Assembly (NCBI RefSeq): GCF_009914755.1
Contig: NC_060926.1
Length of the DNA stretch: 64,000 nucleotides
Reading direction: 5' to 3' (one strand)
Origin: the human T2T-CHM13v2.0 reference genome, Homo sapiens
Shown: positions 28,467-48,296 of the stretch, in pieces
Position numbering within the stretch: position 1 is the first letter of the stretch
How the letters are laid out: the number at the start of each line of letters is the position of its first letter
Notes under the pieces: generated by a model
The model's database searches: none
What the model saw: only the letters and a program-made list of their open reading frames with translations
Told to the model about the DNA's origin: nothing
Made by a program: the position numbers and the translations under genes

Positions 28467-29690
28467 TTTGGGAGGCTGAGGCTTGAGGATCACTTGATGT
28501 CAGGAGTTTGAGACCAGCTTGGCCAACCTGGTGAAACCCCGTCTTCACTAAAAATACAAAAAAATTAGCTGGGCATGGTGGCAGGCACCTGTAATCCTAG
28601 CTACTCGGTAGGCTGAGGCAGGAGAGTCGCTGGAACCCAGGAGGAGGAGGTTGCAGTGAGCCGGGATCTATGCTACCGCACTCCAGCCTGGGTGACAACT
28701 AACATAGGAAAATGCAGTAGCACAGTTATTTTGAGAAAAGGAGGCCGGACATTGTGGCTCATGCCTGTAATCCCAGCAATTTGGGAGGCCTAGGCGGTGG
28801 ATTAACTGAGGTCGGGAGTTCGAGACCAGCCTGACCAACATGGAGAAACCCCATCTCTGCTAAAAATTAGCCGGGCATGGTGGTGCATGCCTGTAATCCC
28901 AGCTACTCGGGAGGCTGAGGCAGGAGAATTGCTTGAACCCAGGAGGCGGAGGTTGTGGTAAGCTGAGATTGCACCATTGCACTCCAGCCTGGGCAACAAG
29001 AGCGAAACTCCATCTCAAAAAAAAAAAAAAAAAAAAAAAAGAGCCGGGCGCAGTGGCTCACACCTGTAATCTTAGCACTTTGGGAGGCCGAGGTGGGCAG
29101 ATCACGAGGTCAGGAGATCGAGACCATCCTGGCTACCACAGTGAAACCCCATCTCTACTAAAAATACAAAAAAAAAAAAAATTAGCCAGGTGTGGTGGCA
29201 GGCGCCTGTAGTCCCAGCTACTTGGGAGGCTGAGGCAGGAGAATGGCATGAACCTGGGAGGCGGAGCTTGCAGTGAGCCAACAGGGTGCTACTGCATTCC
29301 AGCCTGCGCAACAGAGCGAGACTCCGTCTCAAAAAGAAAGAAAGAAAGAAAAGGCCAGGCACGGTGGCTCACGCCTGTAATCCCAGCACTTTGGGAGGCC
29401 AAGGAGGGTGGATCACCTGAGGTCAGGAGTTCGAGATCAGCCTGGCCAACATGGTGGAACCCTGCCTCTACTAAAAATATAAAAAGTAGCCAGACATGGT
29501 GGTGGGCGCCTGTAATCCCAGCTACTCAGGAGGCTGAGGCAGGAGAATTGCTAGAACCCAGGAGATGGAAGTTGCAGTGAGCCGACACAGTGCCGCTGCA
29601 TTCCAGCCTGGGCGACAGAGCGAGACTCTGTCTCAAAAAACAAAAGCAAACAAACAAAAAAAAAAACAAACAAAAAAAGAGAGAAAAGGA
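28467..29690 (+). repeat. Four-Alu cassette with 45-bp unique spacer, copy A
   Basis: Spacer 28698-28742 is 44/45 identical to the reverse complement of 47997-48041; private Alu mutations are shared. Confidence 0.9.
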
Positions 29691-32600
29691 GATGGAGCTC
29701 CCTGGGGAAAAAAAAAGCAGCCTGAGGCATGCAGCCAGCCTGACTGTTTGGGTGTCTCCCAGTCTCATTCTTCTGCTTCTCTATCTCCCCTCCTGTACTC
29801 CTACTCCAGAGTCTCCCGAAAGCCTATAGATCTGCTCCAGAGAGGAAGCTGGGAGCTGATTCTGGAGGAGAGCCCTAGACCAGGGCCCCCAGCTTTCTCT
29901 TATGCTCTGGAAAGTGTTTACCAAGTGCCCAGCCTTGAAGTCATTTGTGACGCTCTCTGCCTTACTGAAGAAAAATGGGTTTTGCCTCAATTCCTCAGTC
30001 CTGTTTAAATATTTAGTTTAATCAGCACTGGCCCAAGTGCCTTTTCCATTTCCCCCAGTGCCTGGGAGCCATGCTGACACCAGCATCATAAATAATGCAT
30101 CCGATCCCAGCAACATGCCACTGGCCGGGAGTCACTCCCTCCCTCAAGTCTCCCAGCCTGCCCGATGCTGCAGATGCTTTGGGTAAAGCTCGACCAAGAT
30201 GGAGAAGTCAGTCTTGAGCCCTGCAACCTTCAGCCAGAAAGCCACTCCTGGAGGGAGTCAGTATGACAAGCAAGTGGTCCCCATGCCAGCCCAGATCTGA
30301 GGGGCCTTTGAGGGGCTGTATTGGTGGGGGGAATGGGAAGAGGTAGAAGCACCAAGGCCACAGAGTGTTCAACTCTACCTTCAGCATTGCTCTGACCTCA
30401 TGGGGAGACTTCAGGGCCCGTTAGAAAAGGTCTGACTTAGGCTCTGTGTGAGTATAGAGCAGAGGACAAGGGCACCCGATTTCCAGATTTCAGGAGCCAG
30501 CCAAGATCAAGGGCAGAGGAAGGAGGCCCTACGAAACGCTGGAAACTTCTCTCCTCCTTCTGCCTCCAGAATTCTAGCTTCTAACATGGACTCCACCCTT
30601 CAAGAACACAGTCCAAAATATATATACCTACTTTGTGCCCACAAAATTTAAAAGAAAAGACCAGGTGAGGTGGCTCACGCCTGTAATCCCAGCTACTCGG
30701 GAGGCTGAGGCAGGAGAATTGCTTGAACACAGGAGGCGGAGGTTGCAGTGAGCAGATATCGCACCACTGCACTTCAGCCTGGGAGGAGCCGAGATCGCGC
30801 CACTGCACTCCAGCCTGGGCGACAGAGAGAGACTTTGTCTCAATATAAATAAATAAAAATTTAAAAATTAAGAAAAAAAAAACACAGTCCAGATTTTTCT
30901 TCATTGTTCTAGAAGCCTGGAGGGGGTGGGGTAGGGTGGGGGAGTCAGGGCTTCCAGAAGATGTACATTATGTCTCCTCTTACAGAAAGGAACCAATGAC
31001 AGGTTTTGGCTGGACGGATTCTGGGTGTCCTTTACCAAAGCCTCGAAAAGGTCAAACTGCCTCCAGGTGTCCTGCTCAGTGCTCTGATCTGTGCAATTAA
31101 ACGTGAAACATTGCATTAGTTGCCACTAATAATATAGTCCTGACCTGGCTTTGTAAAAGCAGCTCCTTGAAGTGTCTCTGTAATACTCATGCTTTTTTCC
31201 TCCAAAAATTTACAGAGATAAAAGGAGACATAAACAATGATTTATTTATCTAGGACTTCGAAGTTTAGCTTGAGCTCTCCAACATTTTCAGTCCTTTTTG
31301 AAATCAAGAGTGCAAATAAACTTCCCTCTGTCTCTTATAGAAAGGGCAGTAGCTACAAACCTACAGATAAAGATAAAAGGAACTGATAAAAAGAGCAAAT
31401 TCTAGTCTCTATTCCTCAGTCTGGCAGGGGATGTGGGGGGTTCATGAGTCCCCTCTCTGTGTCCTTGGAGTCGTCTACACCATTGGGTATCTCAGGCCAA
31501 CCCTACCAATTTATTTTGAGCTGCCTAGCACCTGAAGAATCAAGAACCACCAAGGAAAGATGGCAGGGGAGTTGGTATTCATTGGCCACCACTTTGCCAA
31601 ATCCAGTGTTGATTTATTATTACTCTTGCTCCAGTTTGTCGGTTGGACCACTCCCTTTTTCACTTGGCTTTTGCGACCGGTACTTCCCTGACATTTTTCA
31701 CACCTCCCTCAATGCTCCCTAGTCTCTCTTTATGGCTCTCCTCCTGATCACTACCTGCATAGTTCTCAATTCTTGGCTACACTGTGGAATCACCTGAGGA
31801 CTTTTTTTTTTTTTTTTTTTTGAGTTGGAGTTTCGCTCTTGGTACCCAGGCTGGAGTGCAATGGCATGATCTCGGCTCACTGCAACCTTTGCCTTCTGGG
31901 TTCAAGCGATTCTTCCTCTCAGCCTCCCAAGTAGCTGGGACTAACTGGGACTAAAGGCATGTGCCACCACGCCTGGCTAATTTTGTATTTTTAGTAGAGA
32001 TGGGGTTTCTCCATGTTGGTCAGGCTGGTCTTGAACTCCCGACCTCAGGCCATCTGCCCACCTCGGCCTCCCAAAATGCTAGGATTACAGGCATGAGGCA
32101 CCACACCCAGCCTTTAAAAAAATTTTTTTTTTTTTTGAGACAGAGTCTCACTCTCTCACCAGGCTGGAGTGCAGTGGCATCATCTCAGGTCACTGCACCT
32201 CCGCCTCCTGGGTTCAAGCAATTCTCCTTCCTCCCAAGTAGCTGGGACTACATGCACACGCTGCCACGCCCCGCTATTTTTTTTTTTTCCATATTTTAGT
32301 AGAGACGGGGTTTCACCATATTGCCCAGGCTGGTCTCAAACTCCTGAGCTCATGCAATCCGCCTGCCTCAGCCTCCCAAAGTGCTAGGATTACAGGCGTG
32401 AGCCACCGTGCCCGGCCTTTTTTTTTTTAACTAAAACCCATGGACTACTCCAAACTAATTAAATCAGGATTTCTTGGGGTGGAGCTCAGCCTTGTCTCAG
32501 TAGTTCCCCTGGAGCAGCTAGAGTAGAGAACCAACCTTTGCTCTCAATGTTGGCTTGCCCCAGGGCTCAGGCCTCTGCCCTCCTCTCCACCCACACTCCC

Positions 32601-47000: not shown

Positions 47001-47090
47001 TGAACTCCTGGACTCAAAGCAGTCCTCCTGCCTCAGCTTTCCAAGTAGCTGAGACTACAGGCATGTACCACCATACCTGGCTAATTTTTT

Positions 47091-48296
47091 GTTGTTGTTG
47101 CTATGGATTCTTGCTCTGTTGCCCAGGCTGGAGTACAATGGCATGATCTCCGGTCACTGCAACCTCTGTCTCCTGGGTTCAAGCAATTCTTCTGCCTCAG
47201 CCTCCCGAATAGCTGGGATTACAGGCGCCCAACACCATGCCTGGCTAATTTTTGTATTTTTAGTAGAGACAGGGTTTCACCATGTTGGCCAGGCTGGTCT
47301 CAAACTCCTGACCTCAGGTGATCCACCCGCCTTGGCCTCCCAAAGTGCTGAGATTACAGGCGTGAGCCACTGCCCCAGCATTTTCTTTCTTTCTTTCTTT
47401 CTTTTTTGAGATGGAGTCTCGCTCCGTCGACCAGGCTAGAGTGCAGTGGCGCAATCTCAGCTCACTGCAAGCTCCGCCTCCTGGGTTCACACCATTCTCC
47501 TGCCTCAGCCTCCCGAGTAGCTGGGACTACAGGAGCCTGCCACTACGCCTGGCTATTTATTTATTTATTTATTTATTTATTATTTATTAGTAGAGATGGG
47601 GTTTCACCGTGTTAGCCAGGATGGTCTCGATCTCCTGACCTTGTGATCCGCCTGCCTCGGCCTCCCAAAGTGCTAGGATTACAGGTGTGAGCCACCGCGC
47701 CCGGCTTTTTTTTTTTTTTTCTGAGGCGGAGTTTTGCTGTTCTTGCCCAGGCTGGAGTACAATGGTGCAACCTCCTCTCACCACAACCTCTGCCTCCTGG
47801 GTTCAAGCGATTCTCCTGCCTCAGCCTCCTGAGCAGCTGGGATTATAGGCATGCACCACCATGCCCGGCTAATTTTTAGCAGAGATGGGGTTTCTCCATG
47901 TTGGTCAGGCTGGTCTCGAACTCCCGACCTCAGGTGATCTACCACCTCGGCCTCCCAAAGTGCTGGGATTACAGGCGTGAGCCACCATGCCCGGCCTCCT
48001 TTTCTCAAAATAACTGTGCTACTGCATTTGCCTATGTTAGTTGTCACCCAGGCTGGAGTGCAGTAGCATAGATCCTGGCTCACTGCAACCTCCTCCTCCC
48101 AGGTTCAAGTGATTCTCCTCCCTCAGCCTCCCAATTAGCTGGGATTACAGGCACCTGCCACCACACCCAGCTAATTTTTTTGTATTTTTAGTGAAGACAG
48201 GGTTTCACCATGTTGGCCAGGCTGGTCATCAAGTGATCCACCCGCCTTGGCCTCCCAAAGTGCTGGGATTACAGGCGTGAACCACTGCACCCCGCC
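47091..48296 (-). repeat. Four-Alu cassette with 45-bp unique spacer, copy B (inverted, MTA3 intron 2)
   Basis: Same element order and private variants as 28467-29690; nested in the middle A-rich linker of an AluJ-like element (46938-48410). Confidence 0.9.

What the first reader, a model, noticed from the sequence alone, without database searches (positions are those of the whole stretch)
28467..48296. Inverted ~1.2 kb composite Alu duplication bracketing the MTA3 promoter and exons 1-2
Seen: 28467-29690 (+) and 47091-48296 (-) have the same order, Alu1 - 45-bp non-Alu spacer (44/45 identical) - Alu2 - Alu3 with (GAAA)n tail - Alu4. They share non-consensus variants (GATCACTTGATG, GTCTTCACTAAAA, GGAGGAGGAGGTTG, GGATCTATGCTA, linker deletion CTCTGCTAAAAATTAG, GTTGTGGT). 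In copy A, Alu2-4 are enclosed by a perfect TSD GAGAAAAGGA (28733-28742, 29681-29690), so the spacer is native there. Copy B lacks the second TSD half, has a full 5' head that copy A lacks, and sits between taattttt/taatgttt inside an AluJ linker. Inference: A is the donor and was copied ~17 kb away into a single resident Alu by Alu-Alu template switching. Repeat masking would hide this. The pair could mediate inversion of the promoter and exons 1-2, or form long dsRNA if a transcript starting further upstream spans both copies.
Basis: partly seen in the sequence, partly recalled or inferred. Interest (0 to 1): 0.8.

Follow-up and report, generated by a model that had tools for sequence, protein, structure and literature searches.

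The report
Old inverted Alu-cluster copy around MTA3 promoter
A 1.1-kb block of four Alu repeats plus a short unique spacer was copied long ago, upside down, into another Alu 18 kb away across the MTA3 promoter; it is a real but ordinary kind of repeat-mediated rearrangement with no shown function.

Summary
28467-29628 (+) and 48259-47106 (-) align colinearly at 86.6% over 1,177 columns. This is the best off-diagonal match in the window (1,418 bits; next best 838). The 45-bp non-Alu spacer is 44/45 identical and occurs exactly twice in the 3.1-Gb genome.

Copy A is native. Its flanks are single-copy, and a perfect 10-bp target-site duplication encloses Alu2-4. Copy B lies inside an AluJ linker between an 8-bp target duplication, so an Alu-type insertion was there.

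Best reading: a resident Alu at B was broken and repaired from cluster A, entering in Alu1 and leaving in Alu4. The repair was ectopic gap repair or template switching. Estimated age is about 25-30 My.

Caveats:
- Only Alu1 (8 private shared substitutions) and Alu2 (a private linker deletion) show copy-specific sharing.
- Alu3 rests on a unique (GAAA)n tail.
- Alu4 rests on position and modestly low divergence, so the 3' breakpoint is not fixed.

The functional ideas are untested. Copy B already has a nearly equal pairing partner in its own intron, and the longest perfect identity tract is 87 bp. No primate genomes were available, so the key test was not run.

The parts
28467..28697 (+). Copy A, Alu1. 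It is truncated at both ends: no head (about the first 38 positions are missing) and no 3' end or A-tail.
   Evidence: A1/B1 are reciprocal nearest neighbours (0.942 non-CpG identity). They share 8 private substitutions, against 4 for the next best of 3,240 pairs. They are sisters at 0.995 support.
28698..28742 (+). Copy A, 45-bp non-Alu spacer. Its last 10 bp (28733-28742) are the left TSD of the Alu2-4 block. It contains the only T4 run of the cassette (28729-28732).
   Evidence: 44/45 identical to B. Two copies in the whole genome. T-run scan.
28743..29042 (+). Copy A, Alu2 with poly-A tail. It carries an 8-bp linker deletion (CTCTGCTAAAAATTAG).
   Evidence: The linker-deletion motif occurs only in A2 and B2 in the window. 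Sisters at 0.959 / 0.838 support. Longest perfect tract with B is 87 bp, 28806-28892.
29043..29352 (+). Copy A, Alu3, inserted in the tail of Alu2. (GAAA)4 tail at 29336-29351.
   Evidence: (GAAA)>=4 occurs once per strand in 64 kb, in A3 and in B3. Sisters at 0.80 / 0.78 support, with 0 private substitutions.
29353..29680 (+). Copy A, Alu4 with an A-rich tail. The 3' breakpoint of the copied tract lies somewhere within it.
   Evidence: Body 24/228 mismatches against B4 (10.5%; 3.8% of 630 random pairs are as low). 3' edge 12/45 (26.7%), like unrelated Alus.
29681..29690 (+). Right TSD (GAGAAAAGGA) of the Alu2-4 block at A. Single-copy DNA follows.
   Evidence: The flank 29681-29900 has 1 genome match, itself.
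48263..48296 (-). Copy B, full Alu head that is absent from A. Inferred to be a remnant of a resident Alu.
   Evidence: alignment. It begins at Alu position 1, directly after the TSD.
48042..48262 (-). Copy B, Alu1 part homologous to A. It has a 13-bp deletion relative to A 28499-28511. The 5' breakpoint maps between A 28467 and about 28497.
   Evidence: The private motif GATCACTTGATG is shared. The first 22 aligned bases have 5 mismatches, against 103/1,025 in the interior (p=0.067).
47997..48041 (-). Copy B, 45-bp spacer.
47706..47996 (-). Copy B, Alu2 with a shorter A-tail.
47382..47705 (-). Copy B, Alu3. It has an (AAAT)n microsatellite in the linker and a (GAAA)5 tail at 47382-47401.
47090..47381 (-). 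Copy B, Alu4 with a (CAA)3A5 tail. Its 3' part is inferred to belong to the resident Alu.
48297..48409 (-). Host AluJ, left half. It ends in the TSD copy AAACATTA (48304-48297).
   Evidence: It aligns to full-length old Alus up to reference positions 147 and 149.
46944..47089 (-). Host AluJ, right half. It begins with the TSD copy AAAAATTA (47089-47082).
   Evidence: It starts at reference positions 140 and 142, giving an 8-nt overlap with the left half on 2 of 2 informative references.
41617..44076 (+). Bracketed MTA3 first exons: alternative exon 41617-41798, exon 1 42204-42345, exon 2 44009-44076.
   Evidence: Taken from the hub annotation given with the finding. Not tested here.

Best explanation
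This is an ancient, small, inverted dispersed duplication made at the DNA level.

At locus A the native arrangement is: unique DNA, a doubly truncated Alu1, 45 bp of unique DNA, then Alu2, with Alu3 and Alu4 later inserted into A-rich tails. The Alu2-4 block is enclosed by one 10-bp target-site duplication.

At locus B, 17.4 kb away in MTA3 intron 2, an ordinary Alu had inserted into the A-rich linker of an older AluJ, with an 8-bp target duplication.

A break or stalled fork inside that resident Alu was then repaired using the nearby cluster A as template. One end engaged Alu1 by Alu homology. Synthesis ran through the spacer, Alu2 and Alu3 into Alu4. The new strand then re-annealed to the other half of the resident Alu by Alu homology. 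The result is: resident head + about 0.86-1.17 kb copied from A + resident tail.

Shown here: the duplication, its direction (A to B), and the retro-insertion site at B.

Inferred: the resident-Alu stage, the repair mechanism, and the age (about 25-30 My, near the ape / Old World monkey split).

No function is shown. The pair is most likely a neutral by-product.
For: The duplication is real.
- It is the top self-match of the window.
- The spacer occurs twice in the genome.
- Five private motifs, including a linker deletion, are shared only by A and B among about 100 Alus.
- A1/B1 and A2/B2 are the two best-supported cherries of 26 on an 81-Alu ML tree, and they hold on non-CpG columns.
- The (GAAA)n tail is unique to the two Alu3 copies.

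The direction is A to B.
- A's flanks are single-copy.
- A perfect 10-bp TSD encloses Alu2-4 in A only.

B is a retro-insertion site.
- The AluJ halves overlap by 8 nt on 2 of 2 informative references.
- The insert starts at Alu position 1 and ends in an A-rich tail.
- The element-sense target reads TT/AAAC. The L1 endonuclease consensus it is compared with is recalled.

A single event fits the divergence.
- Non-CpG-type divergence is similar across segments: 4.1, 2.2, 6.2, 6.7 and 6.2%.
- The excess in Alu3 is of CpG type (18 of 37 mismatches).

Breakpoints lie within Alus.
- The edges are more divergent: 5/22 and 16/52, against 103/1,025 in the interior.
- A's GGCTTGAGG against B's GGCGGGTGG in the head overlap.

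A DNA route is favoured over an RNA route because donor and copy lie 17-19 kb apart in cis. This last point is inference.
Against: - No outgroup genome was available, so a single Alu at site B was never observed.
- The Alu3 and Alu4 pairs have 0 private shared substitutions.
- A3/B3 support (0.80) ranks 10th of 26 cherries.
- B4 is sister to an unrelated Alu at 24781, with A4 next to them.
- Alu4A is as close to the Alu at 34913 (87.9%) as to Alu4B (87.6%).
- An unrelated three-Alu tandem at 3349-4247 aligns in register with A at 81.1% over 916 columns and with B at 80.9% over 888 columns. Colinearity of abutting Alus is therefore weak evidence by itself.
- The left-edge excess is not significant (p=0.067).
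- The right-edge excess is largely explained by that Alu region being intrinsically variable. Random pairs show 23.2% there, and 15% of the 630 random pairs show as large an edge-minus-body difference.
Confidence: 0.7

Rival explanations
1. One-step RNA-mediated origin. In one version, a read-through transcript started at position 1 of the tail-less Alu1 at A (when it still had its head) and ran through the spacer and Alu2-4. In the other, L1 reverse transcriptase switched templates from an Alu RNA onto an MTA3 pre-mRNA and back. Either way the product was inserted by target-primed reverse transcription into the AluJ linker. This would be a kind of Alu-driven 3' transduction.
For: - The whole of B is bracketed by an 8-bp TSD, starts exactly at Alu position 1 and ends in an A-rich tail.
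- Only one T4 run (28729-28732) interrupts the cassette on the sense strand up to 29800.
- B lacks the second TSD half of A, as expected if priming occurred in the Alu4 tail.
Against: - An RNA copy could land anywhere in 3.1 Gb, yet donor and copy are 17-19 kb apart (inference).
- A's Alu1 has no head or A-box now, so a later deletion in A must be assumed.
- Three non-CpG differences cluster within 6 nt in the head overlap.
- The 3' edge of Alu4 is as divergent as between unrelated Alus.
- Pol III would have to read through a T4 run.
Confidence: 0.08
2. The copied tract is shorter than claimed. Only Alu1 - spacer - Alu2 - Alu3 (through the (GAAA)n tail) came from A. Alu4 at B is essentially the resident Alu, so the '1.2 kb, four-Alu' description overstates the copy.
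For: - The Alu4 pair has 0 private shared variants and is not a nearest-neighbour pair.
- B4 is sister to u24781m.
- Alu4A matches 34913-35185 at 87.9%, against 87.6% for Alu4B.
Against: - A4-B4 body divergence is 10.5%, which lies in the lowest 3.8% of 630 random AluS/Y pairs.
- Non-CpG-type divergence of the Alu4 body (6.2%) equals that of Alu2 and Alu3.
- A4 and B4 fall in one three-tip clade.
- A break repaired within one Alu is expected to return downstream of the entry position in Alu coordinates (inference).
Confidence: 0.15
3. B is the donor and A the copy.
For: B has the more complete Alu1 head.
Against: - A non-Alu spacer cannot be native inside an Alu insertion within an AluJ linker.
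- A carries both TSD halves and continues into single-copy DNA.
Confidence: 0.02
4. Chance colinearity of two unrelated Alu clusters, with no duplication.
For: Abutting Alus do align in register over about 900 columns at 76-81% without being related.
Against: - The 45-bp unique spacer is 44/45 identical and found nowhere else.
- Five private motifs are shared.
- The score is 1,418 bits, against 838 for the best such chance cluster.
Confidence: 0.01

Closest known systems
Non-allelic (interlocus) Alu-Alu gene conversion
   Same: Sequence is transferred one way from a donor Alu locus into an acceptor Alu that keeps its own flanks and TSD, after a break. The definition is as given in PMC8230782 (passages read).
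   Different: Here the two homology anchors are different Alus of a cluster (Alu1 and Alu4). The tract therefore carries in a unique spacer and two to three whole extra Alus, a net insertion of about 0.9 kb, rather than replacing Alu sequence with Alu sequence. The survey in PMC8230782 states that it excluded Alus with flanking TEs or clusters, so cases like this would not be counted by it.
Alu-bounded segmental duplications (Alu enrichment at SD junctions)
   Same: It is a dispersed intrachromosomal duplication whose junctions lie in Alus. The Alu enrichment at SD boundaries is recalled; it is also mentioned in the abstract listing of 10.1101/2025.07.09.663898.
   Different: It is far smaller and older: 1.18 kb at 86.6% identity. 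That is below the usual operational threshold of >=1 kb and >=90% (recalled). It is almost wholly made of high-copy repeats, so repeat-masked detection would leave only 45 bp.
Replicative template switching (FoSTeS/MMBIR) and Alu/Alu-mediated rearrangement
   Same: A nearby template, inverted orientation, and junctions in short homologous repeats.
   Different: Those models are usually invoked for recent pathogenic copy-number variants. Here the event is fixed and roughly 25-30 My old, and nothing in the sequence separates it from break-induced gap repair.
Inverted intronic Alu pairs that promote circRNA formation and A-to-I editing
   Same: The two arms are complementary and flank exons. The predicted duplex has 1,061 paired bases at -2,062 kcal/mol.
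   Different: - Arm A is transcribed with arm B only from a far-upstream start, known only from the hub annotation.
- Many closer inverted Alu pairs compete, for example 44160-46131 with B at -1,676 kcal/mol, and 39294-39570 with 46334-46598.
- No back-splice or editing data were examined.

Membership tests
Segmental duplication (operational definition, recalled: >=1 kb and >=90% identity) | Aligned length of at least 1 kb | tested here: met
   1,177 aligned columns.
Segmental duplication (operational definition, recalled: >=1 kb and >=90% identity) | Identity of at least 90% | tested here: not met
   86.6% overall. Only the 522-nt core reaches 91%.
Non-allelic Alu gene conversion / ectopic gap repair | The acceptor is a pre-existing Alu with its own target-site duplication | tested here: met
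   The AluJ halves overlap by 8 nt on 2 of 2 informative references; 6 were tried, and in 4 the left alignment stopped short. The insert begins at Alu position 1.
Non-allelic Alu gene conversion / ectopic gap repair | The tract shares donor-specific (private) variants | tested here: met
   Alu1 has 8 private shared substitutions, against 4 for the next best of 3,240 pairs. Five private motifs, including the Alu2 linker deletion, are shared. This is not met for Alu3 and Alu4, which have 0.
Non-allelic Alu gene conversion / ectopic gap repair | The donor is left unchanged and native | tested here: met
   Both 10-bp TSD halves are present and the flanks are single-copy at A.
Non-allelic Alu gene conversion / ectopic gap repair | The orthologous ancestral state shows the unconverted acceptor | not testable with these tools
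   No primate genomes are held. Only the window's own assembly could be searched.
Single retrotransposition insertion (target-primed reverse transcription) for copy B as a whole | TSD, an A-rich 3' end, and a full 5' start at an A-rich target | tested here: met
   These features are equally explained by the resident Alu.
Single retrotransposition insertion (target-primed reverse transcription) for copy B as a whole | The source locus can produce one RNA covering the whole insert from its first base | tested here: not met
   A's Alu1 lacks the head (about 38 positions) that B has. There is a T4 run in the spacer. This feature could have been met in the past.
Exon-flanking inverted Alu pair acting in circRNA or dsRNA formation | Complementary arms | tested here: met
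   -2,062 kcal/mol with 1,061 paired bases.
Exon-flanking inverted Alu pair acting in circRNA or dsRNA formation | Both arms lie in one transcript, and back-splice junctions or editing are observed | not tested
   The only evidence for one transcript is the hub annotation of an upstream MTA3 start. The literature search MTA3 + circRNA + Alu returned 11 papers, of which 10 were listed; I saw the listing only, and no title concerns this locus.

The most novel reading that the evidence does not exclude
Copy B arose in one step as a retrotransposed read-through or template-switched RNA. The RNA began in the tail-less Alu1 and carried the unique spacer and three downstream Alus, which would be an Alu-driven 3' transduction of about 0.9 kb. 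A further possibility follows: the resulting 1.1-kb inverted pair acts in upstream-start MTA3 transcripts as a catarrhine-specific dsRNA clamp around exons 1-2.
Probability: 0.07. Interest if true: 0.5.

Novelty: new member of a known kind. Interest (0 to 1): 0.25.

Why it matters
It is a clean, dissectable example of how an Alu cluster can be copied into another Alu by homology at both ends. The event is invisible to repeat-masked duplication scans, and Alu gene-conversion surveys skip Alu clusters (PMC8230782).

If such events are common, they add to Alu-cluster growth and to hidden inverted repeats near promoters. For MTA3 itself nothing is shown. The pair is a conceivable but weak substrate for inversion of the promoter and exons 1-2, or for long dsRNA.

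Tried and rejected
1. Shared derived substitutions against one global majority consensus. Rejected as a test because old AluJ pairs dominate through subfamily-diagnostic sites. It was replaced by counts of private variants.

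2. Pairwise identity alone for Alu3 and Alu4. It is uninformative: A4 is as close to an unrelated Alu as to B4.

3. Breakpoint placement from edge divergence. The raw Fisher tests looked strong on the right (p=6e-5). A control with 630 random Alu pairs showed that this Alu region is intrinsically variable, so the 3' breakpoint is only suggestive.

4. A fourth copy of the TSD 10-mer at 35193 (-), next to the Alu most similar to A4. On reading, it is a chance match: 7 nt separate it from the Alu, and the upstream sequence is unlike the spacer.

5. Other high-identity tandem-Alu matches, such as 3662-4240 with 26717-27310 at 86.4%. They are not sisters and have 0 private variants, so they are not duplications.

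7. Literature. MTA3 + inversion + inverted repeat gave 1 paper, on a Chlamydomonas gene of the same name. MTA3 + circRNA + Alu gave 11 papers, of which 10 were listed; none of those titles is about this locus (listing only).

No RepeatMasker or Dfam library was on hand, so Alu subfamily names (AluJ, AluS/Y-like) are recalled labels and not tool results.

Full report
**What is there**

Read on the plus strand at 28467-29690 and on the minus strand at 48296-47090, the two stretches show the same order of parts: Alu1, a 45-bp non-Alu spacer, Alu2, Alu3 with a (GAAA)n tail, and Alu4.
- BLASTN gives one colinear alignment, A 28467-29628 against B 48259-47106. It has 86.6% identity over 1,177 columns, with 120 mismatches and 6 gap openings. 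The best out-of-register alignment of the same two stretches has 73.6%.
- The ungapped core 28512-29033 / 47706-48227 is 522 nt at 91%.
- In a self-comparison of the whole window (3,767 off-diagonal HSPs) this is the top hit, at 1,418 bits. The next reaches 838 bits.
- Single-Alu HSPs (n=2,365) average 79.2% identity, with a 95th percentile of 85.6%.

**More than chance?**

The decisive element is the spacer.
- It is 44/45 identical between the copies.
- A 67-mer and a 60-mer spanning it each find 2 matches from 2 candidates in the 3.117-Gb assembly. Both matches are in this window, and for the 60-mer this holds even at E<=10.
- The tool warns that very common words are skipped. The spacer itself is not Alu.

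They are GATCACTTGATG, GTCTTCACTAAAA, GGAGGAGGAGGTTG, GGATCTATGCTA and the shortened linker CTCTGCTAAAAATTAG. GTTGTGGT also occurs at 17824 and 52561 and is not private.

(GAAA)>=4 occurs only at 29336-29351 (+) and 47382-47401 (-).

I collected 81 Alu copies of at least 220 bp from the window (108 BLAST hits). I aligned them and built ML trees.

| Pair | All columns | 238 non-CpG columns |
|---|---|---|
| A1/B1 | sisters, 0.995 | sisters, 0.995 |
| A2/B2 | sisters, 0.959 | sisters, 0.838 |
| A3/B3 | sisters, 0.804 | sisters, 0.784 |
| A4/B4 | three-tip clade with an unrelated Alu at 24781, 0.832 | same clade, 0.566 |

- Of the 26 cherries on the tree, A1/B1 and A2/B2 are the two best supported.
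- A3/B3 ranks 10th.
- B4's sister is the Alu at 24781.

Private shared substitutions are states carried by at most 4 of the 81 copies. There are 8 for A1/B1, against 4 for the next best of 3,240 pairs. There is 1 for A2/B2, and 0 for both A3/B3 and A4/B4.

So copy-specific sharing is proven for Alu1, the spacer and Alu2. Alu3 rests on the unique tail and on position. Alu4 rests on position and on a body divergence of 24/228 (10.5%), which only 3.8% of 630 random AluS/Y-like pairs reach.

One caution applies. An unrelated three-Alu tandem at 3349-4247 aligns in register with A at 81.1% over 916 columns and with B at 80.9% over 888 columns. Colinearity of abutting Alus is therefore weak evidence by itself.

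**One event or several?**

The table gives mismatches between the copies by segment. CpG-type mismatches are those where one copy has CG and the other TG or CA.

| Segment | All mismatches | Non-CpG-type |
|---|---|---|
| Alu1 (28489-28697) | 9.7% | 4.1% |
| Spacer | 2.2% | 2.2% |
| Alu2 | 8.7% | 6.2% |
| Alu3 | 13.1% | 6.7% |
| Alu4 body | 9.7% | 6.2% |

In Alu3, 18 of the 37 mismatches are of CpG type. The non-CpG-type figures are fairly uniform. The extra divergence of Alu3 is what would be expected if Alu3 was young and still CpG-rich when copied. That would also explain why it carries no private shared changes. This part is inference.

**Direction**

- At A the flanks 28250-28466 and 29681-29900 are single-copy; each finds only itself.
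- GAGAAAAGGA stands at 28733-28742 and again at 29681-29690, enclosing Alu2-Alu4.
- Removing that block and one repeat therefore joins the spacer directly to the downstream unique DNA, which means the spacer is native at A.
- B lacks the second half of this repeat.

At B the cassette splits an older Alu in its A-rich linker. When the two halves are aligned to full-length old Alus of the window, the left half ends at reference position 147 (or 149). The right half starts at 140 (or 142). That is an 8-nt overlap, AAACATTA against AAAAATTA. It was seen on 2 of 2 references where the left alignment reached its last base. On the other 4 of the 6 references tried, the left alignment stopped 7-11 nt short.

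The insert at B starts at Alu position 1 and ends in (CAA)3A5. So B is a classical retro-insertion site. A non-Alu spacer cannot be native there, and A is the donor.

**Mechanism**

B's first ~34 bases are an Alu head that A does not possess. In the next 22 aligned bases the copies differ at 5 positions, against 103 of 1,025 in the interior (p=0.067). A reads GGCTTGAGG there and B reads GGCGGGTGG.

At the other end, the last 52 aligned bases of Alu4 differ at 16 positions (p=6e-5). That part of an Alu is intrinsically variable, however: 23.2% among random pairs, and 15% of those pairs show as large an edge-minus-body difference. The 3' breakpoint is therefore suggestive only.

The copied tract is at least A 28497-29352 and at most 28467-29640.

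The simplest account is a resident Alu at B that was broken and repaired from cluster A, with Alu homology at both ends. This could be synthesis-dependent gap repair or replicative template switching; the sequence does not tell them apart.

A one-step RNA route fits the TSD, the exact 5' start and the A-rich end. It could be a read-through transcript from Alu1, or template switching by the reverse transcriptase. Only one T4 run (28729-28732) stands in the way of a polymerase III read-through. But this route needs a later loss of A's head. It also leaves unexplained why the copy landed within 19 kb of its source. I give it about 8%.

**Age**

Jukes-Cantor distances for the interior are 0.108 for all mismatches and 0.060 for non-CpG-type mismatches. 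At a recalled rate of 1e-9 per site per year, the latter gives about 30 My.

There is also an internal calibration. The A4-B4 body divergence is 10.5%, against 15.3% between unrelated AluS/Y-like copies. Taking recalled AluS ages of 35-40 My, this gives about 25 My.

Both estimates are rough. They place the event near the ape / Old World monkey split.

**Function**

The pair does bracket the annotated promoter and exons 1-2, according to the hub annotation.

Inversion by homologous exchange is conceivable. The longest perfect tracts are 87, 39, 33 and 31 bp. That is short for homologous recombination, and the threshold I compare it with is recalled.

As RNA, A and B could form a duplex of 1,061 pairs at -2,062 kcal/mol. 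B also has a plus-strand Alu cluster 1-3 kb away in the same intron (44160-46131), with 993 pairs at -1,676 kcal/mol. A has minus-strand Alus 2-5 kb away, at -817 and -511 kcal/mol.

A is co-transcribed with B only from a far-upstream start. I could not verify that start beyond the annotation.

I found nothing in print on this locus. MTA3 + circRNA + Alu gave 11 papers, of which 10 were listed; I saw the listing only. MTA3 + inversion + inverted repeat gave 1 paper, which is unrelated.

**Comparison with what is known**

The event works like non-allelic Alu gene conversion, as defined in PMC8230782 (passages read). It differs in being anchored in two different Alus, so that it inserts about 0.9 kb. 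That survey states that it excluded Alus with flanking repeats, so such cases would be missed by it.

It also resembles Alu-bounded segmental duplication but fails the usual 90% identity criterion (the criterion is recalled). I file it as a new member of a known kind.

**Limits**

No primate genomes, no repeat library and no SV, circRNA or editing data were available. Subfamily names are recalled labels.

Noticed in passing
window 47555-47590 (-) against 29157-29180 (+): After the duplication, the A-rich middle linker of Alu3 became an (AAAT)n microsatellite in copy B. In copy A it is a plain A-run. This is a dated example of microsatellite birth inside an Alu linker.
   Followed up: no
window 48227-48230 (-), relative to A 28499-28511: Copy B lacks 13 bp (TCAGGAGTTTGAG in A) just inside the 5' junction region. 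It could be a later deletion or a scar of the copying event.
   Followed up: partly
window 3349-4247 (+): Three abutting Alus align in register with Alu2-4 of copy A (81.1% over 916 columns) and of copy B (80.9% over 888 columns) without being related. This is a useful warning that tandem Alu clusters mimic duplications.
   Followed up: yes
window 35193-35202 (-): A fourth copy of the 10-mer GAGAAAAGGA lies 7 nt upstream of the Alu at 34913-35185, which is the closest relative of Alu4A (87.9%). On reading, the upstream sequence is unlike the spacer, so I take it as a chance match.
   Followed up: yes
window 44160-46131 (+) and 46334-48409 (-): MTA3 intron 2 holds six plus-strand Alus followed within 0.2-2 kb by six minus-strand Alus (one at 46334, the AluJ, and the four of copy B). 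The predicted duplex with copy B is -1,676 kcal/mol. This makes a strong local dsRNA-forming arrangement in the canonical transcript.
   Followed up: partly
window 47090-48296 (-): The copying added three extra antisense Alus to MTA3 intron 2, 3 kb downstream of exon 2. Antisense Alus are the usual source of Alu exonisation (recalled). No such exon appears in the annotation supplied.
   Followed up: no
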